DNA of 19,866 nt, taken from positions 157,992 to 177,857 of the forward strand of contig NW_014577079.1 in NCBI RefSeq assembly GCF_000485595.1, given 5' to 3'. This DNA comes from Priapulus caudatus (Eukaryota). Of the stretch, positions 1 through 19,866 are shown piece by piece; the stretch's first letter is position 1, and every line of letters starts with the position of its first letter. Made by a program: the position numbers and the translations under genes. A model generated the notes under the pieces. It was not told where the DNA came from, did no database searches, and saw only the letters and a program-made list of their open reading frames with translations.

Positions 1-679
1 ACTCCTGTAATATAGACTGCTGTATATACTGCTGTATACTCCTGTAATATAGACTGCTGTATACTCCTGTAATATAGACTGCTGTATACTCCTGTAATAT
101 AGACTGCTGTATATACTGCTGTATACGCCTGTAATATAGACTGCTGTATACTCCTGTAATATAGACTGCTGTATATACTGCTGTAATATAGACTCCTGTA
201 TATACTTCTGTAATAAAGACTGCTGTAATATAGACTGCTGTATACGCCTGTAATATAGACTGCTGTATACTCCTGTAATATAGACTGCTGTATACGCCTG
301 TAATATAGACTGCTGTATACTCCTGTATATACGCCTGTAATATAGACTGCTGTATACTCCTGTATATACGCCTGTAATATAGACTGCTGTATACTCCTGT
401 ATATACGCCTGTAATATAGACTGCTGTATATACTGCTGTAATATAGACTGCTGTATACTCCTGTAATATAGACTGCTGTATACGCCTGTAATATAGACTG
501 CTGTATACTCCTGTAATATAGACTGCTGTATATACTGCTGTATACTCCTGTATATACGCCTGTAATATAGACTGCTGTATACGCCTGTAATATAGGCTGC
601 TGTATACGCCTGTAATATAGACTGCTGTATACGCCTGTAATATAGACTCCGGTATACTCCTGTAATATAGACTCCTCTA
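1..679. repeat. Minisatellite, ~25-bp unit ACTCCTGTAATATAGACTGCTGTAT with 10-15 bp sub-units; continues off the left edge
   Basis: The unit and variants (ACGCCTG for ACTCCTG, extra ACTGCTGTATAT) repeat continuously from base 1 to ~675. Confidence 0.95.
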
Positions 680-1947
680 TATTATACACTCCTGATATCG
701 TCGCAAACATTTTCCGCCGTAACCGTGGATGGTTCTATGTAGCGAATGCTGAACGGCGTGTGGGTGGTGGGGGGGGGGATGGGACGTGTAAGGCAAAACA
801 GTATTCGAGGCTACGTACGCTCTGGGGTAATATTCTGTGCAACGTTTCTATACCTGCTATGCGAAAAGGTTACCTCGTGAAAGCGTACATTTGAATTAAA
901 AGCTGTACAAAACAAGGGCACTCGTGAGGCCTTTCCCCCACGTCTGTGGGTGAATAAATACACTGACATTTTCGTGATACGTGGGAGTATGTAAAAGGGT
1001 TTTCAGAAATTTCGTGTTAAATTGCTATTTGAGTGCGCAGGTAGAGTGGTGACAGGTCATAAATGCTGTAATTTTAACAGCGTGTTCAATTCCATATGAA
1101 AGTTGGTACACATTCTTTCATATGTCACACGAATGGCTAGCAGTAATTAATTGTGAACTGCGTCAAAATGTGCACCGTTTTACAAACACTTCTTATGTAA
1201 TCTGAGAAGTAAACAATGAGTTTCTTACCATATCGTCTCATGTAGTTGACCGAACGCTTGCTAAATTTGCCTCCCATTTCAGTTTGTAAGGGTCTTGGTT
1301 TTTTGATGCTGTTAGTCCTATCTGCTGTGGTTATGACTCGCTAATGGTTAGTACACAGCTTTTGTAGTCTAGGCGGGTAATTCTCTCACTACGTAAATGG
1401 AGTTCCATTAGTTCCTGTTTACAAGCGCTTCCGATATCGTTACCTTCCTCAGGATATTGTGATGTCATCCGCTTCCTTTAAATTTTATTCGATTTGCACG
1501 GGTGTGTCCATATATGTGCGTGTGACTATATTGAACGTGTTTAGCTTTAGGTTCCTGCGTAAAGTTGGTGACGCAGTCATTGATGATTCATTTTCCCCCT
1601 TCTAAGCCATGAACAACTCGAGCCATATAAGTAACTTTGTGTGTAGCAAAAAATGTTCATGCTGGTTTCACTCAATTTGTTCGCATCTTTACTGCTTGTT
1701 TGCTATGTTTGACTATAGAGGGGTTGCAATCATTGATACCCACCAGGGGACCATTGTCAGAAACGTTGTAGCTCTGTGATGGTGGGTAGTACTATTATAT
1801 AAGAGAAAATGGCAAGGTACAATAAGAATTATATTACATGTCAATGTTTCTGTCAGTGGCCCCCCAGGCGTCATACTTGCAGTAGATCTGGCCACATTAC
1901 CCGAGGTTCCTTAAAAATCATTTAATTGTTGTGTACGTGTTTTGTAG

Positions 1948-2091
1948 ATTTCAAAGCTAAAGAGCCGTATTGTGGACGTGGCCATTAAAGAGCCATACAT
2001 GGGTGAACAGATTCCTTTAAAATGGCTGAAATTTGAGAGAGAAGTCACGCGACTGGTCAACCAGGGTGTCAACTACTGTTCGCTCCATCAA
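1948..2091 (+). CDS. Exon A: last Roc helix and Roc-COR junction (ISKLKSRIVDVAIKEPYMGEQIPLKWLKFEREVTRLVNQGVNYCSLHQ)
   Basis: Acceptor ttttgtag|, donor |gtatgt, 144 nt, phase-0 end. MGEQIPxxWLxFE is the typical start of COR. Not in the ORF track. Confidence 0.88.
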
Positions 2092-5000
2092 GTATGTAAA
2101 ACGATTTTGCTTACAATAAATGGTTTCAGTTGACTGTGGGTGAAGAAACAGTAATTCATAAAATTGATGAGTATACTACGGGTACGGGAGGTAGGAGATG
2201 GTATCAGGTGTAACATAGAAAGACGCAGGAGAAAGGTTTTATGCTTTAAGATCAGGATGTCTATCAATGTAAGCATAAGATGGGAGATTGCATGAATAAC
2301 ATATAGAAGGGTATGAGATTACGCTTCCCGTAAGAATGTTCTTAGTTGTCATGAAAATTTTTACCAGTATCTCATTGAACTCGGCTGTTAGCGACTTGAC
2401 TGATACATACAAAAAACTGCGCTACAGCTAGAATAATAGCAAGGCTGTCAAGCTCGTTATTAAGCGATCGTGGCTAACACGGCCAATCTCGCCTCCAACA
2501 GATAGCAGACCAAATTTTCTTATACCAGTATGGGATTATAATTAAGCTCACTTCGTTATCGACACGTAAACGTTACCCATACCCTGTTGAAACCGCGTTG
2601 CGACTAGAACCATAGCTGCTAAGCCCGTTACTCTGTGACCACGAATAACATGGCTATGGCTGCTTCTCACGGATTAGGGAGAACAGGGATCAGGGACAAA
2701 TTTCCCATTAGCCAGTACGAAATTAAACTCGGTCGTTATCGACGCGCAAACTTGACCCGTACCTTAGAAACCGTGCTGCAACTAGAATCGTAGCGAAGCC
2801 TTCGAGCACATCACTCTGCCTAGCTGGCTCTAGCCAGTGACCGCCGGGGGGGTCGGTTTCTTATCGCAGATGAGGGAGATCGTTCAGGAGGAGGAGATTG
2901 CACTCGAGGAGGACCTCGCGACGATGCTCAACTTCTACCATGACCTCGGCGTCGTCGTCTACGTCGGCGGCGTTGGCGCCATCGACGACTGCCTCCGCAA
3001 CACCGTCATACTGCAGCCACAGTGGCTGCTCGACGTCTTCAGGCGCGTCATCACGGTCACCGACCTCAATGACCAGGTGAGTCACCCTCGCGGGCCACGT
3101 TGTTATGGTCACCGACCTCAGTGAGCAGGCGAGTCGCACCGCGGGGCGCATCGCCACGGTCACCGACCTCAGTGAGCAGGTAGGTCATCTTGTGGGGCAC
3201 GTCATCACGGTCCCCGACCTCAGTGAGCAGGTAGGTCATCTTGTGGGGCACGTCATCACGGTCCCCGACCTCAGTGAGCAGGTAGGTCATCTTGTGGGGC
3301 ACGTCATCACGGTCCCCGACCTCAGGGAGCAGGTAGGTCTTCTTGTGGGGCGCGTTGTTATGGTCACCGACCTCAGTGAGCAGGTGAGACGCCCTCGCTG
3401 GAAACATTAAGACTTTGGTAGTAAATACATATCGTGTTTATTTACCATCATTTTACTACTGAAACGTTCCAAGTGCCTGTGCACTGTATATTTGATCCTG
3501 TGTACATACGTTTTACGCGCGGCGTCAACGTAATCAAGTATGGATGGCAGAAAGTCTGATTGTCGCGCATTTGCAGTGGCCACATTTCATGGATTCATGG
3601 GGGAAGCTTGAGCGTGAGGGAATCATAGAGGACCGTCTGCTAGACCATATGTGGGCTGACATCATAGAACAGAAGTCTGCACTCATAGGCTTCATGGAGA
3701 GGTTCGATCTACTCTGTGAGCGGCAGCAACCTACCAATGTACGTACCTATATGTGTGTATGTGTATATGTATGTGTTTATATATGTGTGTGGACGCACAC
3801 ACATTTGCGCACATACACACACAAGCAAGCACGCACGCACGCACGCACGCATTCACCACACATCACAGAGAGAGAACAATCACTTTGCTTAATTTGCTTT
3901 GTTTTGCTCTGCTTTGTGTTTTGCGTTTGATTTGTGGTTATTGACGTATAATATTCACGACGGAATTAATGGCCAGATTTGTGGGCAGTTCTGTTGCTTG
4001 TATGAAAAATCCTTACATGGTTTGTGCACGTGCTTTCAGCAATGGTGGTAGCCTTGTAGATTTCCTTTATAGTTCGATAAAATTCCTGGAAAATCTACTT
4101 CTCCCATTACAGCTAATGGACGAAGAGGAAAAGGATTGGGTGAAAAGCTACTATGTGCCTTGTAGACTGCAACAGTGTCCGGACACTAATGGCCTCACCA
4201 CTGCCGGCAAACATGATGCCATTTTCTATTTAGACTTCAATGGATTCATGCCAGGTATTTGTAATGTGATATCATCAGGAGTGTATAATCCCCCCCCCCC
4301 AATCCCTCTCTATTATACACTCCTGATATCATTAATACTAATAATACTCATTGGTATCAAATATAGGTTGTAAGTACAGTGTTTTAGAGAATTATATGCT
4401 TAATATGCTTATATAGTTTCATGCCACATATTTGTTCTATAATGTCATTAATGGTAATTCCTCTTAAATATAGATTGTATTTAGTCACTATAGTGTTACA
4501 GTAGTCCAAAAATCCGGATGTCAGAAATCCGGACCACGCGAGAACCTGGACTTTTCGAAAGCGCTTAAACATTTTGAATTAAGCTTTTTTTGTAGTGAAA
4601 ATTTTTATGCTTACATTTTTGTCAAGTGTTGACTTTATTTTTCTTTAAAACTGCTCGTTTTGATAAATGAAGCATGCTGTATTTGATAATAAATAAACTA
4701 TCAAAATTTACCTGTTCATCTCTTTTTTATTCCTACTTAAATTTAAATTTTAAAAGTACTTCCCGAGAATCCAGAAGTTCCGAAAATCCGGACTGACCCA
4801 ATCCCCGAGTAGTCCAGATTTTCGGTCTTTCACTGTATAGAGAATTCTTCCATTGTAGATTCATGCCAGTTATTTATAGTGTGATCTATGTTACATATAT
4901 ATAGTGTTATAGAGAATTCTATGTTCACAATTTCATAGCAGGTATTTTTGCTGTGTCATAGCAGGTATGTTGTTAGAAGCAAAGACCTATATATATACCT

Positions 5001-8000
5001 GCTATATATAGCTTCCAATGATCAGTGGTAATTGCTCTCAAAAATCATAGTTTGTATGGTATATATATATATATATAGAAAAAAACTTCAAGGCTGTGTT
5101 GCATGAAATATTTTACATAGTGTGTACACGTATTCTGTCAGATTACATTAAGACATGGTCATCTAATAGCAAAGGTAAGATATTATATTATATATCATAT
5201 ATTATTGATATCTTATATTATTTTTATTATTGTGCGATTATTAATTTGGTTGTTAGCTATACGTCACTGCTAACGATGAAGTCTAGACGTGATACGATGG
5301 TACGCACTGCTTTTGCAGATGGCATCTTTCATCGCTTGCTAATCAGAGCTGTGCGCTGGAGTCAGGAGAATGGAGGGCGGGAGCCGAAGCTCTACTACCG
5401 CGTCGCACGCTTCTACGTCAACGACGAACACGACTTCGTGCTGGAGATGTCCAGCTTGCATTATTCACGAATAAAGGTACCGATCGTAGTGCGTACGCCA
5501 CGTCGGTGTAATTCCCGTCTCGGTCAGTGTTGCAGGTGAATCGACATTTTATCGGAAGTTTAACTGTCCTACAGATATGTCTGCAATGTACATAAATATA
5601 TGTATACGTTAATGAGCCAAATACTGGTAAAAAAAGCCAAGGTGGGAAAATAAATATGGTGAAAAGAAGTGCGTATTATCATTGAGCAAGAATCGAGCAT
5701 ATTCAGTATGGTCGGGAAAAAACTGTAGGCAGTAAACGTGGTGTAGGTATATACATCTGATTTTTTACACAGTTTTAATAAGTGCTAGTGCTGCTTAATA
5801 AGGTCAGGTGGTAATAACTGTAGGTGGTATTGTAGATGTGAGTAAGAGAACACGTATGTGATAACTGGCAGTCAGTAGACATGGGTGAGAGTGTATAGGC
5901 ACGTGAGAGCGCAGTGTGCAGGTACGTGTGTGTGCTGTGTGGTGTGTATTACTAATACGCGCGCAAACACGCGCCGAGTTGTGGGGCTGTGTGTGTGGGA
6001 GGGGCCGTGTGTGTGTGTGTGTGGAGGGGGGCGGGCGTTGTGTGTGGACATGCGTTGTATGTGTGCGGTGTGCCCGTGAGCGCATTTGCGTGTTGGTATA
6101 TAGGTCGTGCATGTGCGCGTGCTGCGTTTGCGTACGTTGCCGATGCGTGCGTCGTGCCTGTGCCTGTGCGTTGGCGTTCCGTGTGTGTGACCGTGCGTGC
6201 GTGCGTGTGTGTGCTTTGTGCCGTGCGCGTAGTGTGTGTAGGTTCGTATGTGCGCATGTGTTGTGCGTGCGTGCGTGCGTGCATGTGTATGCATGTACGT
6301 TTGACGTGTTGGGATGTTTCAGGTGCTAGTGCTTCGAGTTGCCGTTCTGGATGATGAGGAGGAGCAGGATATGGAAGTTGGCACAGACAACCTTCCTCCC
6401 CCGAAACCCCACGCATGTGCTGAGGTAAGGCATCAAGTATTGTTTATTGTGCATAGTCTCTCCTCCCAATACTACATTCTTTATATATTCTTAGATTAAA
6501 TTTTGAGAGGTAGGAAAAGTTAGGAGAAGCTGATGTCGAAACGTTTCTTATTCGTTGCCATGTGGCGTATAGCGTTAAATATTTTTGCCGAAGCCCTGGA
6601 AGCTAACTCACTGGCACCACACGTTTTAGTACAGAAATATTGCAGGCCTCCTGTTTAAATATATTTGTTTGTTAATTCGTTACCCAATTGCCTTTGCCTT
6701 TCATCACATGATTTGTGTGAAACAATTATTTCCAGTTATTGCTATTGTTCTTCAACGCGAACCTGATTCTGTTAGTGCTGAATATAAATTTCATAAATTT
6801 CAATTCTCAGCTCTGTTTGAATTCCATTGTCGTTTGTAAACTTTCGCTTTCATTTTGGCTTCTCCAATGCTAAGTCTTCGTCTCGACTTCTATCCGAATG
6901 AATGAATCTGAAATCCGCGCCATGGCAACCCTGGAGTTATTTCCGCTAGTGATGGGTCAACGTCACCGTGCAGTTCCGCATCGCGCTAACGCGCGCGCGT
7001 TCCTTCCCCGCAGGTGCGCCGCTTCCTCGAGCTCGCACTGCAGGACCTGAAGAAGGTGTGGATGTGGCGCATCAGCTACCGCACGATGGTGCAGTGCGGC
7101 TGCAGCCGCGAGTGCGCTCTGCACCGGCGCGCCGCCTGCACCGAGCAGTCCTGCGTGCACTTCCTGCCGCTGGACGACTGTCTGTCGAACAAGGTGAGTT
7201 AGAGGTGATGAGTGTAAGGGAGGGAGGGGCTGAGTGGGAAGGCAGCATGCGAGGGACCCAGGGTGGGGGAAGGGACAGACAGGGTGAGATGCAGGTGGGG
7301 GGGGGGCAGAGGTTAAGGTAAGAATGGGGATGCAGGAGTGTTTATTAATAATTAACAGTTGACCGATGTGACCACTTTGGTTATCTATTGAGATGGCATA
7401 AATTTGGTATATTTTTTCAAGTTTCAATAATGAGTATTTTAATGGAAATTTATATTTCACAGGTTGTGAGCTGTGATCACCGCAGAATTAAAACGGCACC
7501 TTTCAGAAAAATTTTCCCCTCACCGACGCCATTTGGTAATTATACTTTTATATTAGTTTGACTATTAATTATACATAAATAACACGTATATAAAGAGATA
7601 TTGAATTTGAGAAATTTCACACGTTTTTAGAGATATTGAGGTTAAGTCCTGCAGTCAAGTGATTATGATGTCAAATTAGATATTAGCTGTATGACCCTCA
7701 AGTGAAATTATTTCTTTCCATGAAAATATTTACATTTTTGCCCACGTGGCATGCTTGGTCCAAAACTAAATTCCTGAGATATTTTTAAAACAACATACCT
7801 AATATCAAGAACGCACCTGTACCATACAGTATAGATATACTCATGGTGATATTCATATGTTAGTCAAGTTGTAGAGTAAAGTCAAGTCAAATAAAAAGAC
7901 TCAAATCACTTTTTTCCACAGTAAAAGATGGGCCCGTTATTGAGGCCATCAGCAAGGCTGTCATAGCCCAGCAGGCAAGGAACACTGAGTCGGTCGTGAC

Positions 8001-8441
8001 GGATCTGCCGCACTGGGTGAGAGGGGCTGCGAAGATGCTGAACGCCGCCACTCCGGGAGCCGACTGGTCCGCGCTTGCCAAGAAGCTCGGTAGGTGTTGC
8101 CAGTGGCTCACCCTTCTTGGGCTGTTTATGTGCATCGGACCCTCCCCCTTCCCCTCTGGCTTATTTTTTGGTTTCAGCTAAAAAAAAAAAAATTCTCATC
8201 CCAGTGCAATGTCATTGGTCATCACATTGCGCTCGTGTTTTTTGTTCAAAAGAGTTGCCCTGAGTGACACTTACGTACAGGCATTGACAGTGTGTTGCGT
8301 CACTGAACTCACCTTCTGCTCACGCAGGCTATCGTAAGGAGAAGGTGCGTGACTTTGAGGATGACATCAACCCGGGTCTGGCACTGATCGTCGACTGGGT
8401 GCATCGCGGCGGCAACAACGTGGCGTGCGTCNNNNNNNNNN

Positions 8442-8478
<37 letters not shown>

Positions 8479-11400
8479 GCTCTCGCTCTCGCTCTCTCTC
8501 TCTCTCTCTCTCTCCCTGGGGTAAGTTTACGAGTTATTTGCCGTAATTTAAAAGCCTTTTGCGTGAACCTGTCGCGTTGTGCTGTTGTCACTGTGGCGTG
8601 TGTGTGCATATCCCCGTGTTGTGCTGGCTGATGTGCCACCCCCGACCGAGTGTACGGCATAATGCTTGCGTGACCATGAGTATACATTTATTTGCACGCA
8701 TTCGTTGTGTAATTAACATAAGAATACATGTGTTTAAGGTTATGAACATTTGCATGTTCATGGTTGCCTGTATTAGCATTTATGCATACTCGTGGAGTGC
8801 CGTGTGTTCGCAAGCTGCCTCACTAATTCCATGCGTTCAAACCAATCCTTATAGAATCCTTATATTAATCCCTTAGTAATATATTTTCTATTTCTACATT
8901 TCTATGGAATTATATTACTCTGCACCCGTCACCCTACACACCACTGTCACTCTTTCGTTGTCATTTCCAACTGTAATTTCCACCCTGGCACTCTCCCAAT
9001 GTCATTCTCCCACTATCACTCTCCTATACTGTCGCTCTCCTCGTCATTCTCCCACTATCACTCTCCTATACTGTCACTCTCCTCGATTGTGACAATGTTG
9101 TAGATGTACAATGCGTGTAGTTTTACGACAAAGTATACCGTGTGTAATCCTACATCTAACTACGGGGAGATTATCCATCCATTATAAGACTGTCTATGAT
9201 CAAGAGTAGATAATAACAAGATGATAACAAGATTGTTATTATCTACTCTTGCTATATTATGTTACTTTTGCACTGGTTATTTTCGTTTTTACTTCTATAC
9301 GCGTAAATCTCGTGTCTATTATGTCACTTATGCTCGCAGCATGTTCCTGTTTTATCGTGTTGCTCCCATACACATTTTTTACGACCATTCGTTGATGTTT
9401 CTGCCCCCCACGGCTGTGTTACAGAGGCGGACGTGCAGCCAGCTCAGGTGTTTCTCAGCTACTCCTGGGACGTGCAGGACCAGGTGAAGGTGCTGCGCAC
9501 GCGTCTGGAGCAGGCTGGTTTCACCTGCTGGATGGACCTCGGTCAGATGGGAGGTGGAGACTACTTGTACAGCAAGATAGAGTTGGCTATCCGCGATGCA
9601 AAAGTACATAAGAGATTAAAACCTATTCAATCAAATCTGTATCTAATTAAAGGTCATGCAGGAAAATCGTCAAAAAAATTTCCATTCTATGGAGGTGACC
9701 ACTAACACAGGTTTTACTGTATTTTTTTAATAACTGATGCCCATTATCACTTAAGTTACATGTTACATTCAATTATGTGCACAGAGCATATATTCGTAGA
9801 ACATAAATATAGGATTATGTGAGAAAAAAAACAATTTTATGTTTGTGCTACTGGTTTGTAACTAGTGCATGAATGAACTCTCACCAACTCAAATGTTATT
9901 TTCAAACATGTAATGAAAGAATGCAATTATATAATTTAATAAATAGGAGCGACTATTCAATAATAATACTAGTAATGGGAAGGAATCCATTAACGATAAT
10001 AACTTTTATATAGAATTTAAATAAAGACCATTACCGTATTTTGTTACTTGCACACTGCACAGTCCCATCCACTTGGTGGGTTCTTCTTTACGGATCACTT
10101 TCCTCCGGGCGTAGATGGAGGGTCACGTGATGTGGCTGCCCTTGTGTTAGGATTAGGATCAGGGTTAGGGTTAGGATTAGGATTAGGGTTAGGGTTAGGG
10201 AAATAAGGCCATTTCTAGCACGGAAGTATGAGTGGAATATTTCTGTGGAAGATGTGGACTTTGAAGCGTACAAAGTGACTAGTGCTGCCACGTGACGGCA
10301 CCCTCCATCTACGCCCGGGGGAAAGGGACACCCCTTCTTTACATCGTCTGTGATAATCACGGGTGTATAATGACAAATTAAACTTAAATTATTAAAAATT
10401 AAAATTGCTTAAAAAAATTAAAATTAAAATTAAATTATATCTCATTACTCACCCGTGGTATAGTGCATGAACTGCACATAATGATTTCGCTGTGTCGCAT
10501 TCGTTACAGATGGTAGTGTGTTGTATCACTCCTAAGTATGTGAGCTCATACATGTGCATCAAGGAAGCGAACCTTGCTGACGTGCTTCGTAAGCCCACGA
10601 TCCCGGTCATGTTCAAGAAAACACAGTGGCCGCCTCCTAACGGTCTAGCACTTGTCTTTCCCCATCTCCTATACATAGACCTATTCGGTAAGCCACCTTT
10701 ACGCTCGTAATATATTACTAGTAAGGTATTGTACACTAATGCCTGTCGAATCACAGTTTTTTTGGTGGGGGGACCCAACCCCAGAAAAGGTGACTGATTA
10801 CTTGTAGCCATGCCACACAGGCTTATGCCCTTTGTGGTATAAGTGGGTATGAAAGCAGGATGATGTGGAATAGACAGAATAATTGTTTGTAAGATGACAA
10901 AAGTCGAATTAGTTTAGTGCAGAGAGATTCTGCCACTAGTGTGTATGAATATGGTTCATAGTGAAGTTCATCATTCTTTTGAAGTTCATCATTTATTCTT
11001 TGAAGTATTGTAAAGTAAAGCCTAATTTGAATTTCGCTAGGTCTTGGTGGCCACGGTGGAAGCGGCATTCATGCTGACTTTGAGGCTCGAATGGCCGAGG
11101 TCATTTACCAGGTGGCTCAGTACTCACAACCAGCGTTGCCAAGGAAACACCTAGCAGGCTATAAACCTGTGCATTTCGAGCTACAGGAGAAGATGAATGT
11201 ATTCAACGTGGAGGCTGCCACGTTTGTACGAGATTCAGGTGTGCAAAATACAAGCTATGATATCAAATTATATCTGTGTACACAGTGCTTGTGGGCATTA
11301 GCAGTGCTTGATTGCATGTGTCTGATGCGCTTTTGAAAATGTGTTTTATTTGTTTTCAGTGACCACAGCTTCGGTACATGGCGAGGGAGACATTCACGGG

Positions 11401-11487
11401 ACAGGGAGAACGCTAACGCCTGTCACAGTGGGAGCAGGTATACCGGTAGCTAACGTGCAACGATGTACAGTCTGCGCTATCTTGTAG
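1948..11487 (+). CDS. 5'-partial multi-exon gene (14 exons in window): ROCO-family protein, [Roc end]-COR-Cys/His-rich-Death-TIR-CaaX
   Basis: Exons: 1948-2091, 2870-3076, 3577-3738, 4113-4254, 5319-5476, 6323-6424, 7014-7193, 7463-7535, 7922-8089, 8328->8431 (gap), 9425-9603, 10510-10687, 11041-11238, 11360-11487. All visible junctions are GT-AG with matching phases and no internal stops. COR motifs PYMGEQIPLKWL, FYHDLG, VILQPQWL, YYVPCRL, FMPDGIFHRL; Death motif DWSALAKKLGY; TIR motifs VFLSYSW, CWMD, CIKE, IPV. Confidence 0.9.
2354..2830. repeat. Three diverged ~175-180 bp tandem copies in the intron before exon B
   Basis: Shared blocks: tcgttatcgacacgtaaac (~2553) and tcgttatcgacgcgcaaac (~2733); gaaaccgcgttgcgactagaaccatagc (~2589), gaaaccgtgctgcaactagaatcgtagc (~2767) and aaactgcgctacagctagaataatagc (~2414). 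Confidence 0.75.
2870..3076 (+). CDS. Exon B: COR-A core (MREIV...MLNFYHDLGVVVY...NTVILQPQWLLDVFRRVITVTDLNDQ)
   Basis: Acceptor ttatcgcag|, donor CAG|gtgagt, 207 nt, phase 0/0. LxFxHDLG and VILxPQWL are COR hallmarks. Confidence 0.93.
3047..3400 (+). repeat. Seven tandem 51-52 bp copies of the exon B 3' end plus donor site
   Basis: Unit ~GTCATCACGGTCCCCGACCTCAGTGAGCAG|GTAGGTCATCTTGTGGGGCAC. CAG| ends at 3076, 3128, 3179, 3230, 3281, 3332 and 3383. Confidence 0.95.
3577..3738 (+). CDS. Exon C: COR-A (WPHFMDSWGKLEREGII...LIGFMERFDLLCERQQPTN)
   Basis: Acceptor tttgcag|, donor |gtacgt, 162 nt, phase 0/0. GIL-like and MExFDLL motifs of COR. Confidence 0.9.
4113..4254 (+). CDS. Exon D: COR-A to COR-B transition (LMDEEEKDWVKSYYVPCRL...FYLDFNGFMP)
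   Basis: Acceptor cccattacag|, donor CAG|gtattt, 142 nt, phase 0/1. YxVPxxL motif. Confidence 0.9.
4276..4325. mobile_element. 50-bp miniature TIR element (14-bp TIR CAGGAGTGTATAAT, 7-bp TSD ATATCAT)
   Basis: 4276-4289 is the exact reverse complement of 4312-4325. ATATCAT flanks both sides (4269-4275 and 4326-4332). Confidence 0.7.
4499..4835. mobile_element. Tc1/mariner (pogo/Tigger-like) MITE with TA TSD
   Basis: TA|CAGTAGTCCAAAAATCCGGA ... TCCAGATTTTCGGTCTTTCACTG|TA. Imperfect TIRs, subterminal AAATCCGGA repeats, AT-rich non-coding core. Confidence 0.75.
5319..5476 (+). CDS. Exon E: COR-B (DGIFHRLLIRAVRW...HDFVLEMSSLHYSRIK)
   Basis: Acceptor ttttgcag|, donor AAG|gtaccg, 158 nt, phase 1/0. 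Joins exon D to give FMPDGIFHRL, the PxGxFxRL motif of COR-B. Confidence 0.92.
5900..6300. repeat. Degenerate (GT)n/(GCGT)n low-complexity tract
   Basis: Visible GT/GCGT runs; source of several spurious ORFs on both strands. Confidence 0.85.
6323..6424 (+). CDS. Exon F: beta-strand plus acidic/Pro-rich loop (VLVLRVAVLDDEEEQDMEVGTDNLPPPKPHACAE)
   Basis: Acceptor tgtttcag|, donor GAG|gtaagg, 102 nt, phase 0/0. Confidence 0.88.
7014..7193 (+). CDS. Exon G: end of COR-B and Cys/His-rich segment (VRRFLELAL...CGCSRECALHRRAACTEQSCVHFLPLDDCLSNK)
   Basis: Branch-like gctaac plus tccttccccgcag|, donor AAG|gtgagt, 180 nt, phase 0/0, strong GC3 bias. Confidence 0.92.
7463..7535 (+). CDS. Exon H (VVSCDHRRIKTAPFRKIFPSPTPF)
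   Basis: Acceptor tttcacag|, donor TTG|gtaatt, 73 nt, phase 0/1. Needed to bridge phase-0 exon G to phase-1 exon I. Confidence 0.82.
7922..8089 (+). CDS. Exon I: linker and first half of Death domain (...LPHWVRGAAKMLNAATPGADWSALAKKL)
   Basis: Acceptor ttttttccacag|, donor TCG|gtaggt, 168 nt, phase 1/1. DWxxLAxxLG is the Death domain helix 2 motif. Confidence 0.9.
8328..8431 (+). CDS. Exon J, 3'-truncated by gap: Death domain second half (GYRKEKVRDFEDDINPGLALIVDWVHRGGNNVACV...)
   Basis: Acceptor ctgctcacgcag|, phase 1, open up to the N run. PxxxLLxxW-like helix 4. Not in the ORF track. Confidence 0.85.
8432..8441. other. Assembly gap (10 N)
   Basis: N run followed directly by a (CT)n microsatellite. 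Confidence 0.99.
8442..8514. repeat. (CT)n microsatellite with CTCG interruptions
   Basis: Directly visible. Confidence 0.95.
8985..9085. repeat. Pyrimidine-rich minisatellite containing a 42-bp near-exact duplication
   Basis: gtcattctcccactatcactctcctatactgtc(g/a)ctctcctc at 9001-9042 and 9043-9084; underlying ~14-bp unit. Confidence 0.85.
9425..9603 (+). CDS. Exon K: TIR domain N-half (QVFLSYSWDVQDQVKVLRTRLEQAGFTCWMDLGQMGGGDYLYSKIELAIRDAK)
   Basis: Acceptor gtgttacag|, donor AAA|gtacat. betaA VFLSYS, betaB CWMD and BB loop MGGGD fit the TIR_2 pattern. Confidence 0.93.
9612..9719. mobile_element. Degenerate Tc1/mariner-type MITE remnant
   Basis: Right end gaggtgaccactaacacaggttttACTG|TA; only a weak left counterpart (taaaacct). 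Confidence 0.35.
10092..10333. mobile_element. MITE with 9-bp TSD (Mutator-like) carrying an internal TTAGGG/TTAGGA tract
   Basis: 10098-10123 and 10300-10325 are inverted repeats (25/26 match). CTTCTTTAC is duplicated at 10083-10091 and 10334-10342. GG...CC termini. Telomere-like hexamers at ~10147-10200. Confidence 0.8.
10510..10687 (+). CDS. Exon L: TIR domain C-half (MVVCCITPKYVSSYMCIKEANLADVLRKPTIPVMFKKTQWPPPNGLALVFPHLLYIDLF)
   Basis: Acceptor cgttacag|, donor TCG|gtaagc, 178 nt, phase 0/1. betaC, SxxCxxE and IPV motifs. Confidence 0.93.
11041..11238 (+). CDS. Exon M: GLGGHGGSGIHADFEARMAEVIYQV... and C-terminal tail
   Basis: Acceptor tttcgctag|, donor CAG|gtgtgc, 198 nt, phase 1/1, open frame. 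Confidence 0.85.
11360..11487 (+). CDS. Terminal coding exon N (VTTASVHGEGDIHGTGRTLTPVTVGAGIPVANVQRCTVCAIL*), ending in CaaX
   Basis: Acceptor tttgttttcag|, phase 1. Reads open to TGC GCT ATC TTG TAG TAA (double stop). Not in the ORF track. Confidence 0.83.
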
Positions 11488-14968: not shown

Positions 14969-15002
<34 letters not shown>

Positions 15003-15092
15003 ACATAAATATATATATAATATACATATATATATATTTATATAATATCAGGTATAATATATATATATATACATATATATATATTTATATAA
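14965..15092. repeat. (AT)n microsatellite
   Basis: Directly visible; start of the duplicated block. Confidence 0.9.
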
Positions 15093-15989
15093 TCAAGGTA
15101 ATGACTGCTTATTACTTGGTTAGAAAAATTTGGAAAGAAATATCATGGGATATTATTGTAAAAAAATTCGATGCGCTTAGTGTAATAATATAACTGACGC
15201 TTTGTAGTTTGGGCGAAGGCTGACTAATTGCCATAGTCGCGTACATGCCACTCGTCAGTGGCATTTGCTTTCCTAGGGAAACTGACCAAACATTGGGCTA
15301 CGTCGATGCATTTGCAGCAATAATTACAGTAATTCCACGGGTATTTTTTTTTTATAAATCATGGTGTTTGTAAGTATGTATTAATTTGAATTTGTAACCG
15401 AGAAAAACGCCTACCAAAAATCACACGTGTACCTAATAATTGGCCTAATAGTATTTGTGGTTCAAATCAGAAATGTTTTCGTGAATCGTCAATGTGTGTT
15501 GTTGTTGTTTTATCGGCGTTCAGACCAATAAATGTTGTAATCGGCGTGGCGTGACATAATTGTATAAATTAACTGCCGCGTCACACCAGAAACTATATGA
15601 TACATGTACGAGTTCGGCGAGGTGTTCTAAGGCAATTAAGCACTGGCTGATATAAGTGGGGAAATTAGTGGCGACGTATCTATATCTGTTATTATGGCTG
15701 TCTGCGTGAATAAAGTTACCTTTATAAAGTTAACGGAACTGTTTGATGTAGTTATATTTTCGTAGCAAACGATACACAGTTGCAAACAGATGGCGTTTTT
15801 TATTTTAAGAACGATCGTCTGCCTATTGGCCGCATATGAAGCATGTCATATTGATTCTGTTCCCGTACCCATTATTTTACCACCTGGATATTACCAAATA
15901 AAACATAATCTTCACTAATATAACATAATATATTGGTTAGCTCTACCGCTTGTAGGCCACTTTGCTCGATCTATGCCATTGGTTTTTGG

Positions 15990-17861
15990 CATGGTTCATA
16001 TACAGGAGGAACTGAAAAAGGACTTTTCAAGGACATTTTATCAGAGAAATGCAAGGCATTTTACGGAACATTTTATCGGAATTGCATACACAACAAAACA
16101 TACCTGGATTAATTTAATAACCCCATTCTTAATGCACTGTCACCTCTTTTAAAAAAAAACTTACGCTATGAATCACATTAAATAAACCCCTTCTAAACAC
16201 CTGTCACCCTTCTACAACATAGCCCTTAGGACCGTGATGCGGCCATGATGGCCGAGCTTGCCGAGGATTGAACACTGTGTCTTTTCAATCACAGCCTACG
16301 CCCACCAGCTGTTTGATATTTTTATAGTGGGGACTCTAACAGCATGGAATGCGCCGTCTGCAGGAACTAGGGCATTCTGCATAGGCTAGAACGGTTTCCT
16401 ACGATAAGAGTGTTGCAGCAAAAACGAAAATAAACGCCTTTTAGCGCAGCTGCGCTAACGTCCTTCTTGTTGAATTTTTCATCATTCTCCGGTAATCGGA
16501 ATAAGCCCCGCGCTTCTTGCGTTGATGGCCATGAATGGGCCGTGACCGACGTTTACCGGTTCCCTGTACTACCGTTTTTCGCCGGCCTATTTACTTTTCG
16601 GTAAATAATGAAATCCCGCCGATGCATTTCGGCATCGAAGAGGAAAATTTTCCCACATTTTCACGGTCGCTGTCAATTTTCAAATAAAATAATGCGTGTT
16701 TTAATGTAATTTACCACGATTACGTATAGAAACTATATTGTTATTTTTACTCTGATTTCTGCCGTATCTTTCCTTGGAATTTTCATCGTCTTTGCAATGC
16801 CTTTCCGTAGATTTTTCTGCGTTTTTCTGCGTGATTATTATTCGCGGGGCAGGCACATCATTTTGAAATGCCTCCAACATTTTTACTTCTTGCGGCTTAG
16901 TTAAGTTACGTCCCATGTTTCACTGTTATTTACGAAGGAAGGTAACATGTGGCATTCGTAATAATTTTCACTTTTGCTTCTATAAGTAATGATTTCCATA
17001 ATTTGCTCTTCTGCCCATGATAATAATATTATTTCGGGCTGCATCATCGAAACGGCTCATTATTCAACATTTTCAGTTCGGACTCTTATCATATCGTTAT
17101 AACCTAAATTATTCATTAAATTAAATACCGCCTAGGATGAATATTTGGTGAATTTTGTTATTACTTGGTTGCCTATGCTTGGTTTGGCCTATTGCCTTGG
17201 TTTTTGCCTTGGTCTCCTTCCTATCCTTATCTTTGTTTTGTGAATTTTATAACTACATTGTATTTGTTTTGTTGGCATATTAAAATTCTAATCTTTTTGA
17301 ATTCAGATCTAATATGGAGCATGGAACTGAGCGATTTATTGTTACTCTGTTTTATAATCTCCAATTCCTAGAATATCGTCCATATATAATCATTGTCATC
17401 TTCTAAAAACTAACAGACCATGCCGCTGACGCGCTGTGGAGAACGTGCGCGCGGCCTGCGAATTTTGCGGCACGTCTCCACTGCGACAGGCGGCTTCATA
17501 CTTGAAACATGCCCCGCGTCGCGTAGGCGCATATCCGCGCGGGAACTGCGCGTCTCATTCCCGCGCAGCAGGCGCTTAGGATGCAACAGTCGAAAGCTGT
17601 GCCTAGCAAATCTTGTATCATGTCTCTGTGGATTTACTGGACTGATTTTTAGGTACTGACGTTACTGTAATTTCCGATCATCATTTAACTGTCTATCGTG
17701 TCTATAGCTTTTTAAAAAGCTGCATTAAATCACAGGACATTTCCATGAAATTCATAGGACTTTTTCAAGCAACAAAAATCCAATATTTAACTAAATTCAA
17801 GTACTTTCAAGGACCTCAACTACTCAAATTCAAGGACTTTTCAAGGACTGTGCGAACCATG
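15990..17861. mobile_element. Non-autonomous DNA transposon, hAT-like, ~1.87 kb
   Basis: Left end CATGGTTCATA(TA)CAG; right end CTGTGCGAACCATG (reverse complement CATGGTTCGCACAG). TTCAAGGAC(T/A)TTT subterminal repeats cluster at both ends. TTTTGG flanks both sides. No transposase ORF seen. Confidence 0.72.
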
Positions 17862-18572: not shown

Positions 18573-18597
18573 NNNNNNNNNNNNNNNNNNNNNNNNN
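18573..18597. other. Assembly gap (25 N)
   Basis: N run between (CT)n and (AT)n tracts. Confidence 0.99.
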
Positions 18598-18637
<40 letters not shown>

Positions 18638-19866
18638 CATATATATATATTTATATATATCAGGTATAAATATATATATATATACATATATATATATTTA
18701 TATATATCAGGTATGACTGCTTATTACTTGTTAAAAAATTTGGAAGAAATATCATGGGATATTTTGTAAACAAATTCGATGCTTAGTGTAATAATATAAC
18801 TGACGCTCTTGTAGTTTTGGCGAAGCTGACTAATTTGCCATAGTCCGTCAATGCACTCGTCAGTGGCATTTCTTTCCTAGGGAAACTGACCAAACTTGGG
18901 CTACGTCGATGCATTTGCACAATAATTACAGTATTCACTATTTTTTTTATAAATCATGGGTTTGTAAGTATGTATTAATTTCGAATTTGTAACCGAGAAA
19001 AACGCCTACCAAAAATCACACGTGTACCTAATATTGCCTATAGTATTTGTGGTTCAAATCATGAAATGTTTTTTCGTGAATGTCAATGTGTGTTGTTGGT
19101 TGTTTTACGCGTTCAGACAATATGTTGTAATCGCGTGCGTGACATAATTGTATAATTAACCGGTCACACCAGAAACTATATGATAATGTACGAGTTCGCG
19201 TGTTTCTAAGGCAATTAAGCACTGCTGATATCAGTGGGGAATTGTGGCCCGTATCTATATCTGGTTATTATGCTGTCTGCGTGAAATAAAGTTACCTTTA
19301 TAAAGTTAACGAACTGGTTTGAATGTAGTTATATTTTCGTACAACGATACACAGTTGCAAACAGATGGCGTTTTATTTTAAGAACGATCGGTCTGCCTAT
19401 TGCCCATATGAAGCATGTCATATTGATTCCTCCCGTACCCATTATTTACCCCTGATATTACCATAAAACATATCTTCACTAATATACATAATATATTGTT
19501 AGCTCTACCCTTGTAGCCACTTTGCTTCGATCTATGCCATTGTTTTTGCATGGTTCATACAGGAGGACTGAAAAAGGACTTTTCAAGGACATTTTATCAG
19601 AAATGCAAGGACATTTTATCGGACATTTTATCGGAATTCATACACAACAAAACATACCTGGATTAATTTAATAACCCCATTCTTAATCACTGTCACCTCT
19701 AAAACTTACCTGGATCACATTAATAAACCCTTCTAAACACTGTCACTTCTACAACATACCCTTGACGTGATGCGGCCATGATGCCGAGGCTTGCCGAGGA
19801 TTGACACTGTGTCTTTCAATCACAGCCTACGCCGCACCTCTGTTTGATATTTTTATAGGTGGGGAC
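18598..19866 (+). repeat. Second copy of ~14965-16334, running off the right edge; probable false duplication
   Basis: Colinear match from the (AT)n tract through atgactgcttattacttg to tttttatag(g)tggggac. Differences are mostly 1-2 nt indels. Confidence 0.92.

What the first reader, a model, noticed from the sequence alone, without database searches (positions are those of the whole stretch)
1948..11487. Kinase-less ROCO protein with COR-Death-TIR-CaaX architecture: candidate membrane-anchored, GTP-switched immune/cell-death module
Seen: 14 phase-consistent exons encode COR, a Death domain, a TIR domain and CAIL-stop in one reading frame. The J-K link crosses a gap, so that join is inferred. 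Established: the vertebrate ROCO proteins are LRRK1/2 (COR then kinase), DAPK1 (COR then Death, no TIR) and MFHAS1; MyD88 is Death-TIR without Roc-COR; COR mediates dimerisation and TIR domains are activated by clustering. Inference: nucleotide-dependent Roc-COR assembly at a membrane could switch on a Death-TIR output, analogous to an NLR but with a GTPase rather than a STAND ATPase. I know of no functional characterisation, though homologues may exist as uncharacterised invertebrate models.
Basis: partly seen in the sequence, partly recalled or inferred. Interest (0 to 1): 0.88.

Follow-up and report, generated by a model that had tools for sequence, protein, structure and literature searches.

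The report
Lipid-anchored invertebrate ROCO-Death-TIR switch protein
This is the back half of a real, spliced priapulid-worm gene from an old invertebrate family that genome surveys have listed but, as far as I could find, nobody has tested: it joins an LRRK2-type switch to a death domain and an immune-type TIR domain that likely cuts NAD+, and ends in a predicted lipid anchor.

Summary
Fourteen phase-consistent exons (1948-11487) encode residues 542-1246 of Priapulus caudatus XP_014670082.1, whose full order is Neuralized (NHR)-Roc-COR-Death-TIR_2-CaaX, with no kinase. The gap is not a gene break. Four RNA reads continue exon J in frame into it, and 20 of 20 aligned homologues have Death and TIR contiguous, 24-25 residues longer than RefSeq's join. 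No read spans the gap. The architecture is not new: it is listed for a centipede and an oyster (PMC5094078, Table S10), and an Aplysia ROCO-Death-TIR protein is filed as MyD88-like (PMC9334734). My searches found no functional study. Added here: the family forms one clade that follows animal phylogeny; the CaaX box and a second cysteine are kept (28 of 28 complete ends); the TIR's catalytic-position glutamate is invariant (44 of 44); the guanine-specifying G4 aspartate is mostly lost; and a sister family reuses the Death-TIR-CaaX cassette. Best model (0.45): a membrane-anchored switch that clusters an NAD+-cleaving TIR. 'GTP turns it on' and the NLR analogy are unsupported.

The parts
1948..2091 (+). 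Exon A (RefSeq residues 542-589): end of Roc and start of COR-A
   Evidence: AG/GT, phase 0-0; identical to XP_014670082.1
2870..3076 (+). Exon B (590-658): COR-A core
   Evidence: Pfam COR-A E 9.7e-10
3577..3738 (+). Exon C (659-712): COR-A, second half
   Evidence: weak COR-A hit, E 0.0096; AG/GT
4113..4254 (+). Exon D (713-759): COR-A/COR-B linker
   Evidence: AG/GT, phase 0-1
5319..5476 (+). Exon E (760-812): COR-B
   Evidence: AG/GT; fold match of a homologue's model to LRRK1/2 and CtRoco Roc-COR; Pfam COR-B does not hit the Priapulus protein
6323..6424 (+). Exon F (813-846): COR-B with an acidic loop
   Evidence: AG/GT
7014..7193 (+). Exon G (847-906): end of COR-B with conserved Cys/His cluster (possible zinc site, inferred)
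   Evidence: C874, H895, C902 invariant in 32 of 32; G-H junction seen in a contig of run X1
7463..7535 (+). Exon H (907-930): last COR-B cysteine and linker
   Evidence: spliced junction in X1 contig; C910 invariant
7922..8089 (+). Exon I (931-986): linker and first half of the Death domain
   Evidence: RNA reads in X4; Pfam Death 968-1018
8328..8431 (+). Exon J, visible part (987-1021): middle of the Death domain; the exon continues into the gap
   Evidence: 4 reads run past 8431 in frame
8432..8441 (.). Assembly gap that hides about 70 coding bases (last Death helices and linker) and the J donor; RefSeq skips them
   Evidence: N run; homologues 24-25 residues longer here, 20 of 20
9425..9603 (+). 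Exon K (one split codon, then RefSeq 1021-1079): TIR first half with FLSYSW and the WMDLGQMGGGD loop
   Evidence: Pfam TIR_2 E 3.1e-10; RNA reads
10510..10687 (+). Exon L (1080-1138): TIR second half; catalytic-position Glu1098 at 10564-10566
   Evidence: TIR_2 E 3.2e-6; Glu invariant in 44 of 44 rows
11041..11238 (+). Exon M (1139-1204): family-specific GGHGG loop, last TIR helix, start of the unconserved tail
   Evidence: motif kept in 27-28 of 28; M-N junction in X1 contig
11360..11487 (+). Exon N coding part (1205-1246): tail ending C-T-V-C-A-I-L; CaaX at 11473-11484, upstream Cys at 11464-11466, stop 11485-11487
   Evidence: X1 contig runs to 11538; CaaX in 28 of 28 complete ends

Best explanation
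The window holds the last 14 exons of the Priapulus member of a conserved invertebrate NHR-Roc-COR-Death-TIR-CaaX family, a kinase-less ROCO protein that is predicted to be lipid-anchored and likely works as a membrane-bound switch whose clustering turns on an NAD+-cleaving TIR domain. Shown: gene structure, domain order, splicing and expression, orthology, and the conserved P-loop, Glu and CaaX motifs. Inferred, step by step: (1) the C-x-x-C-a-a-L end is geranylgeranylated and probably palmitoylated, holding the protein on a membrane; (2) the NHR binds a short peptide motif of a membrane partner, as Neuralized NHR1 binds Delta; (3) this input and the Roc-COR monomer-dimer cycle decide whether copies come together, in a direction that is not known and need not be GTP-on; (4) the Death domain acts mainly as the oligomeriser, as SAM domains do in SARM1; (5) clustered TIRs hydrolyse NAD+, giving a cADPR-type signal or local NAD+ loss, most likely in a defence or cell-death programme.
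For: Domain order kept in 35 stored proteins by family HMMs (of 212 stored, isoforms included); Pfam finds COR-A and Death in 32 of 32 aligned members, Roc in 31, TIR_2 in 30, Neuralized in 26, and no kinase family. CaaX in 28 of 28 complete C-termini, 27 ending in L, each with a second Cys 2-3 residues upstream, after a tail that is only 9% conserved. TIR is the best-conserved domain (56% mean identity); Glu1098 is invariant in 44 of 44 rows and lies in the helix after the third strand of the model. By sequence profile the nearest solved TIRs are bacterial enzymes (7uxr, Cat1, AbTir) and SARM1; no MyD88 or vertebrate TLR TIR is among the 60 sequences listed. P-loop Lys 32 of 32, G3 W-D 32 of 32. 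A sister family puts the same Death-TIR cassette, plus a second TIR and CaaX, behind a HEAT/ARM-like solenoid and coiled coil, which recalls SARM1's ARM-SAM-TIR layout. Related invertebrate ROCOs carry caspase, Bcl-2, DED, CARD and GT4 domains. Many non-TLR animal TIRs with this Glu make cADPR, and the legend of the figure of active proteins lists Roc and COR among their domains (bioRxiv 10.64898/2026.04.20.719644).
Against: Nothing about function was measured. In that preprint only 12 of 61 animal TIRs picked for having the Glu were active as isolated domains, and TLR2, IL-1R9 and IL-1R10 have the Glu but no activity. The fold does not separate enzyme from adaptor: SPARTA TIR Z 17.0, SARM1 16.4, MyD88 TIR 15.7 (same picture). 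The G4 Asp is kept in only 6 of 54 family sequences against 57 of 93 other ROCOs, and Priapulus departs further at G2 and G5, so GTP control may be weak. In CtRoco, GTP breaks the dimer (PMC5714945, abstract). The only expression link to infection is one clam contig labelled 'neuralized pats1' by BLAST, and it goes down, not up (PMC4769524). One myriapod member has lost its P-loop (P0027).
Confidence: 0.45

Rival explanations
1. A MyD88-like adaptor with a built-in regulator: the TIR docks on receptor TIRs at the membrane, the Death domain recruits IRAK/Pelle-type or caspase-adaptor Death domains, and the output is NF-kB or apoptosis signalling with no enzyme role for the TIR.
For: Death-then-TIR order as in MyD88; the Death profile hits MyD88's Death domain (E 1.4e-3) as well as p75NTR/NRADD (3.6e-9); an Aplysia ROCO-Death-TIR protein is filed as MyD88-like (PMC9334734); MyD88 TIR is within 1.3 Z units of the best fold match; a lipid anchor would replace the sorting adaptor MAL (recalled).
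Against: The TIR is of the TIR_2 type (79.5 bits) and fails Pfam TIR PF01582 (14.3 bits, cut-off 21.3); the catalytic-position Glu is invariant across the family; sequence neighbours are enzymatic TIRs.
Confidence: 0.25
2. A developmental or neural signalling protein rather than an immune one: the NHR binds Notch-ligand-like NxxN tails at the membrane and the p75-like Death domain and TIR act in trafficking, pruning or neurite degeneration.
For: NHR is very close to Neuralized NHR1 (E 6e-32), the domain that binds Delta (PMC5675594, passages); the Death domain is nearest p75NTR/NRADD; the family follows the species tree without visible expansion; of the four runs laid, mainly one (X4) covers the exons, which could reflect stage- or tissue-limited expression.
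Against: No RING ligase domain; no named member from insects, nematodes or vertebrates among the hits that were named, although all use Notch or neurite pruning; neighbouring ROCO clades carry death and immune effectors. This rival concerns the setting and is compatible with an enzymatic TIR.
Confidence: 0.15
3. The Roc domain is a degenerate or nucleotide-insensitive scaffold in this family: COR gives a standing dimer, and control comes only from NHR ligand binding or membrane crowding.
For: G4 Asp lost in most members (6 of 54 keep it); Priapulus has G4 GTHRR, and differs from the family at G2 and G5; a long, 18%-conserved insert splits the Roc domain; P0027 lacks the P-loop.
Against: P-loop Lys 32 of 32, Thr 31 of 32, switch I Thr 29 of 32, G3 W-D 32 of 32; G4-G5 are known to vary in working Roc domains (PMC6337361, passages).
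Confidence: 0.12
4. Two separate genes, COR-Death and TIR-CaaX, wrongly joined across the gap.
For: No read or contig spans 8431-9425; RefSeq's own join is wrong in detail; Roc-COR-Death proteins without TIR exist (P0029, P0036).
Against: Exon J runs on in frame; 20 of 20 aligned homologues are contiguous with a fixed spacing; four homologues are encoded whole on 4-6 kb Logan contigs, too short for introns of this kind; exon K starts in phase 1 behind an AG and has no start codon context; read depth is alike on I, J and K.
Confidence: 0.02

Closest known systems
[quoted passage not shown] 2016 (PMC5094078, text and Table S10); NCBI name 'neuralized PATS1' for the Saccoglossus protein; Aplysia LOC101861518 (PMC9334734)
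   Same: Same domain order; 39-48% identity over the full length; one clade in the Roc-COR tree. This gene is the priapulid member.
   Different: Nothing in architecture. The passages I read do not mention the CaaX box, the catalytic Glu, the G4 change or the orthology, and report no experiment.
[quoted passage not shown]
   Same: Roc-COR-Death-TIR_2 core.
   Different: Kinase and SH3 in place of NHR. A7RN39 itself was not among my hits; the Nematostella kinase-ROCO that was (A7RN40, P0098) falls outside this family's clade.
DAPK1, LRRK1/2 and MFHAS1 (vertebrate ROCO proteins); Chlorobium tepidum Roco
   Same: Roc-COR tandem by profile and fold; DAPK1 has COR then Death; MFHAS1 and CtRoco are kinase-less (PMC6337361, passages).
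   Different: No kinase, no LRR or ankyrin repeats; adds NHR, TIR and its own CaaX box; G4 Asp mostly lost.
SARM1 (ARM-SAM-SAM-TIR NADase)
   Same: TIR_2-type domain with the catalytic-position Glu; close fold match (Z 16.4, rmsd 2.4, 132 aligned); an oligomerising domain directly before the TIR.
   Different: Death instead of SAM, Roc-COR and NHR instead of ARM, C-terminal lipid box instead of a mitochondrial leader (recalled). Activity untested.
MyD88
   Same: Death followed by TIR.
   Different: TIR of another class with the Glu kept; about 950 further residues in front; CaaX tail.
Prokaryotic AP-GTPase (Roc)-COR counter-invader proteins with TIR effectors (Kaur et al. 2021, PMC8195603, passages) and anemone LRR-Roc-COR-TIR_2 'Novel Gene 1'
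   Same: Sensor-Roc-COR-effector logic with TIR as one effector.
   Different: Those have fast-evolving LRR sensors; this family has one conserved NHR, an added Death domain and a lipid anchor.

Membership tests
ROCO proteins | Roc domain directly followed by COR | tested here: met
   Pfam Roc and COR-A above cut-off; homologue model matches LRRK1/2 and CtRoco over 580-845 columns. Roc lies upstream of the window and rests on the RefSeq model.
ROCO proteins | G1 P-loop GxxxxGK[T/S] and G3 DxxG | tested here: met
   GPHRVGKT at 190 and WDFSG at 390; Lys 32 of 32, W-D 32 of 32
ROCO proteins | G4 aspartate for guanine specificity (usual, but G4-G5 vary in Roc domains) | tested here: not met
   Priapulus GTHRR; Asp in 6 of 54 family sequences (6 unparsed) against 57 of 93 other ROCOs (8 unparsed); variation noted in PMC6337361, so this does not exclude membership
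ROCO proteins | GTP binding, hydrolysis and nucleotide-dependent monomer-dimer cycle | not testable with these tools
   needs purified protein
NHR-Roc-COR-Death-TIR family ('neuralized PATS1') | Domain order NHR-Roc-COR-Death-TIR_2, no kinase | tested here: met
   matches the row in PMC5094078 Table S10
NHR-Roc-COR-Death-TIR family ('neuralized PATS1') | Groups with the other members in a tree | tested here: met
   Roc-COR tree: 36 family rows plus one fragment on a branch with SH-like support 99; Priapulus with myriapods and chelicerates, 97 (FastTree, no bootstrap)
Catalytic (NADase) TIR domains, SARM1 type | Glutamate on helix alpha-C | tested here: met
   S-x-x-C-x-x-E, Glu1098, invariant in 44 of 44, in helix 73-84 of the model. 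Equivalence to SARM1 E642 is by motif and position (recalled), not by a residue-level structural alignment; the alignment stops three residues short.
Catalytic (NADase) TIR domains, SARM1 type | Fold closer to enzymatic than to adaptor TIRs | tested here: inconclusive
   SPARTA 17.0, Hydra TRR-2 16.9, RPV1 16.5, SARM1 16.4, MyD88 15.7
Catalytic (NADase) TIR domains, SARM1 type | NAD+ hydrolysis on clustering | not testable with these tools
   needs an assay; base rate 12 of 61 in the 2026 preprint
MyD88 | Death domain followed by TIR | tested here: met
MyD88 | Small stand-alone adaptor with a PF01582-type TIR | tested here: not met
   1246+ residues; PF01582 14.3 bits against cut-off 21.3, TIR_2 79.5 bits
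NLR immune receptors | STAND ATPase (NACHT or NB-ARC) and repeat sensor | tested here: not met
   neither found by Pfam
DAPK1 / LRRK kinases | Protein kinase domain | tested here: not met
   no kinase family in the protein or in 32 members; UniRef's 'non-specific serine/threonine protein kinase' names for members are not backed by a domain
CaaX-prenylated proteins | C-terminal Cys-aliphatic-aliphatic-X; X = Leu predicts geranylgeranyl (recalled rule) | tested here: met
   CAIL-stop, exon N spliced and transcribed; 28 of 28 complete ends
CaaX-prenylated proteins | Actual prenylation and membrane location | not testable with these tools
   needs labelling or imaging

The most novel reading that the evidence does not exclude
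Invertebrates have kept, since the common ancestor of protostomes and deuterostomes, a second SARM1-like NAD+-cleaving system built on a movable, prenylated Death-TIR-CaaX cassette. It is wired in one family to a ROCO switch with an altered nucleotide pocket and a Neuralized peptide sensor, and in a sister family to a HEAT/ARM solenoid. The ROCO form would be the first animal protein shown to couple a Roc-COR cycle directly to an enzymatic TIR at a membrane, and a kinase-free model for how membrane binding and Roc-COR assembly drive an output in LRRK2-type proteins.
Probability: 0.3. Interest if true: 0.8.

Novelty: new member of a known kind. Interest (0 to 1): 0.5.

Why it matters
If the TIR is an enzyme under Roc-COR control, this family gives a simple readout (NAD+ loss or cADPR) for a long-debated question: which nucleotide and oligomer state of a ROCO protein is the active one. 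It would also add an old, widespread NAD+-signalling pathway to molluscs, annelids, chelicerates, echinoderms and amphioxus, where it is now filed as 'MyD88-like' or mislabelled a kinase. The gene itself is already in RefSeq and the architecture in print, so the value lies in the testable predictions, and in the correction that RefSeq's Priapulus model lacks the end of the Death domain.

Tried and rejected
Whole genome: none held, so upstream exons could not be read; tblastn finds no part of residues 1-541 in the window. Pfam Death does not hit single exons; COR-B is found by Pfam in only 3 of 32 members, so COR-B rests on the fold match. RNA: the run search listed no holder on record as RNA (no evidence either way); X2 and X3 barely cover the exons; no J-K joint in any run. 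The TIR tree did not return the family as one side of a branch, because a single long-branch row (P0118) rooted inside it; the sister family's TIRs are set apart by 100/97. Fold comparison could not tell enzyme from adaptor TIR. Literature: 10 searches; 'TIR domain + ROCO + NADase' gave 0 papers; none of the papers opened describes an experiment on this family. The ecTIR-DC classification (Gerdol et al. 2017, recalled; cited in PMC6321704) was not in the library and may already name this family. Supplements of the 2026 preprint are closed; its Table S4 may include a member, active or not. The clam result was set aside as weak: a BLAST label on one Trinity isoform whose component also holds an unrelated gene. 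Absence from vertebrates, insects, nematodes and cnidarians is not established: only 20 of the 144 new representatives were looked up by name and 59 scanned with Pfam. Rejected: artefact of chance ORFs; two genes; a hidden kinase; membership of MyD88 or NLR families.
Full report
Observation. The window has two N runs, at 8432-8441 and 18573-18597. Fourteen exons between 1948 and 11487 have AG acceptors (14 of 14) and GT donors (12 of 12 testable), and their phases chain without a stop: 480 residues before the gap, 226 after it, ending C-T-V-C-A-I-L-stop. A search with exon B alone returned one protein among 49 candidates, at 100% identity: XP_014670082.1, Priapulus caudatus LOC106811067, 1246 residues. 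The exons encode its residues 542-1246; residues 1-541 are not in the window, and no genome was held to read them. Pfam gives Neuralized 3-150, Roc, COR-A 564-709, a Death match just under cut-off at 968-1018 and TIR_2 1028-1139, with no kinase.

The gap. RefSeq joins exon J to K directly and is 25 residues shorter there than 17 of 20 aligned homologues, and 24 shorter than the other 3. RNA settles what happens at the left edge. Of 43 reads of run X4 laid on 7880-9630, depth falls only on bins that overlap exons I, J and K, and 4 reads run past 8431 with six more in-frame codons, D-K-M-A-Q-S, where homologues begin the fifth Death helix. About 70 coding bases should lie in the gap, more than the 51-52 base reads, so no spanning read is expected and none was seen. 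Contigs of run X1 (RNA by guess) show the G-H and M-N junctions with GT..AG ends. Runs X2 and X3 hardly cover the exons. One transcript across the gap is therefore inferred, not shown, but a split gene is very unlikely.

The family. A search with residues 540-1246 gave 32 proteins among 5779 candidates, most with the full order, from an annelid, a nemertean, molluscs, myriapods, echinoderms and hemichordates; NCBI calls the Saccoglossus protein 'neuralized PATS1'. Further searches added amphioxus, starfish, octopus, spiders, ticks, mites, horseshoe crab and a flatworm (20 of 144 new representatives were named). In a Roc-COR tree of 89 rows (near-duplicates and fragments left out), the 36 family rows and one fragment sit on one branch (SH-like 99), and inside it deuterostomes, ecdysozoans and lophotrochozoans separate, with Priapulus beside myriapods and chelicerates (97). 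The TIR tree shows a similar, weaker pattern. This reads as an orthogroup inherited from the protostome-deuterostome ancestor. I saw no named vertebrate, insect, nematode or cnidarian member, but the survey cannot prove absence.

Conserved features. Among 32 aligned proteins the P-loop Lys and G3 W-D are invariant; 28 have a complete C-terminus and all 28 end in CaaX (27 with Leu) with a second Cys two or three residues upstream; the four without are two short models and two TIR-less paralogues. The tail before the box is 9% conserved, the TIR 56%, COR-B 50%, NHR 42%. The TIR has S-x-x-C-x-x-E, with Glu1098 invariant in 44 of 44 rows, on the helix after the third strand of a confident model (pLDDT 85). 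Against my reading of a plain GTP switch: the G4 Asp is kept in 6 of 54 family sequences (30 have Asn) but in 57 of 93 other ROCOs, and Priapulus departs at G2, G4 and G5 (these residues lie outside the window). A Cys/His cluster ends COR-B.

Structure. A model of the crinoid member (P0007, 1083 residues, pLDDT 74, pTM 0.63) matches LRRK1, LRRK2 and CtRoco over Roc-COR and SARM1 over the TIR. By sequence profile the NHR is nearest Neuralized (E 9e-48), the Death domain nearest NRADD and p75NTR, and the TIR nearest bacterial enzymatic TIRs and SARM1. By fold, enzymatic and adaptor TIRs are nearly tied (SPARTA Z 17.0, SARM1 16.4, MyD88 15.7), so the fold adds nothing on activity.

A sister family. 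The representative search returned a second group of 1200-1570 residues matching only Death-TIR at 40-50% identity. These have a weakly HEAT/ARM-like region and a coiled coil, then Death, two TIRs and again a CaaX end; 34 stored proteins read Death-TIR-TIR-CaaX; named ones are from Ptychodera, Dreissena and Macrostomum. Their TIRs keep the same loop and Glu and form their own branch (100/97). They may be the ARM-fold 'MyD88-like' proteins of the Aplysia survey (not checked). The same anchored cassette behind two unrelated regulators suggests that Death-TIR-CaaX is the working output unit, and that Death serves to cluster TIR.

Mechanism. Most likely (0.45): a prenylated protein on a membrane; NHR reads a peptide motif of a partner, as Neuralized NHR1 binds Delta (PMC5675594, passages); the Roc-COR cycle gates self-association; Death domains cluster the TIRs; the TIRs cleave NAD+. 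All five steps are inferred. A 2026 preprint supports the last step in general: non-TLR animal TIRs with this Glu often make cADPR, and the legend of its Figure 3 lists Roc and COR among the active proteins' domains; but only 12 of 61 animal TIRs were active (10.64898/2026.04.20.719644; parts 1-3 of 6 read; figures not held, supplements closed). The direction of the switch is open: CtRoco is dimeric without nucleotide or with GDP and monomeric with GTP (PMC5714945, abstract), while membrane-bound LRRK2 is the dimeric, more active pool (PMC6337361, passages). Rivals: MyD88-like adaptor (0.25), developmental or neural role (0.15), nucleotide-insensitive scaffold (0.12), split gene (0.02).

What is known. 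[quoted passage not shown] The Aplysia immunome files a ROCO-Death-TIR protein under MyD88, names NHR in the legend of its figure of TIR-COR proteins, and suggests a GTPase TLR cascade (PMC9334734; passages and supplement rows). A clam contig labelled 'neuralized pats1' falls about 760-fold in QPX nodules (PMC4769524; one passage and one supplement row), a weak hint. Bacterial Roc-COR-TIR proteins are predicted counter-invader systems (PMC8195603, passages), kinase-less ROCOs are common (PMC11378527, passages), and conserved invertebrate TIR families have been classed as ecTIR-DC (PMC6321704, passages; the source paper was not available). Ten searches found no experiment on this family. Two earlier notes of this scan describe the same family in other genomes; they are unchecked AI notes and add no independent support.

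Verdict. A real gene, correctly read; a new member of a listed but untested family. Interest 0.5: not surprising as an architecture, but it yields sharp, cheap tests, and the anchored catalytic-type Death-TIR cassette with its sister family seems not to have been described in the papers I could search.

Noticed in passing
XP_014670082.1 at window 8429-9426: RefSeq's model skips about 25 residues of the Death domain at the assembly gap; RNA reads show the exon continuing.
   Followed up: yes
P0063-P0105, P0197-P0202 (e.g. Ptychodera XP_070570166.1, Dreissena XP_052279458.1, Macrostomum PAA93690.1): Sister family: HEAT/ARM-like solenoid, coiled coil, Death, two TIRs with the catalytic-position Glu, CaaX end; same cassette as this gene, SARM1-like layout.
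   Followed up: partly
P0133, P0049, P0087, P0135, P0047, P0046: Related invertebrate ROCO proteins with other effectors: Bcl-2-Roc-COR-caspase (Owenia CAH1786849.1), DED-Macro-Roc-COR-Death (Anneissia XP_033101050.1), CARD-FN3-Roc-COR-TIR (Amphiura XP_072027841.1), Roc-COR-GT4, Roc-COR-kinase-ZU5, Macro-Roc-COR. Some may be fused gene models.
   Followed up: no
window 7014-7535 (exons G-H): Cys/His cluster at the end of COR-B (C874, H895, C902, C910 in 32 of 32; C876 30; C880, H883, C893 27): a possible zinc site.
   Followed up: partly
window 11041-11065 (exon M): A G-G-H-G-G-[S/T]-G loop late in the TIR is kept in 27-28 of 28 family members and was not found by pattern in the sister family; role unknown.
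   Followed up: no
P0001 residues 486-491 (upstream of the window): G4 Asp replaced, mostly by Asn, across the family (6 of 54 keep Asp). In Ras the like change lowers guanine affinity and favours xanthine nucleotides (recalled).
   Followed up: partly
window 3042-3385: A 51-base minisatellite of 6.7 copies grew out of the last codons and donor site of exon B; each copy carries a CAG-GT or similar donor-like site in the intron. Use as alternative donors was not tested.
   Followed up: no
window 10095-10328: MITE-like element in intron K-L: 51-base inverted arms around a TTAGGG-like core; it draws most reads laid on the region, so it is multi-copy.
   Followed up: partly
window 14981-16334 and 18598-19866: The end of the window repeats an earlier 1.35 kb stretch at 89% identity with 87 gap openings, right after an N run: probably an unpolished duplicate in the assembly.
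   Followed up: partly
window 1-681: Degenerate tandem array with 25/37/50-base periods inside the intron before exon A.
   Followed up: no
window 9540: Silent C>T in a Leu codon of exon K in 10 of 10 X4 reads, likely an allele.
   Followed up: no
P0027 (Chamberlinius millipede): This member has lost the P-loop and G3 motifs but keeps Death, TIR Glu and a CaaX-like end.
   Followed up: no
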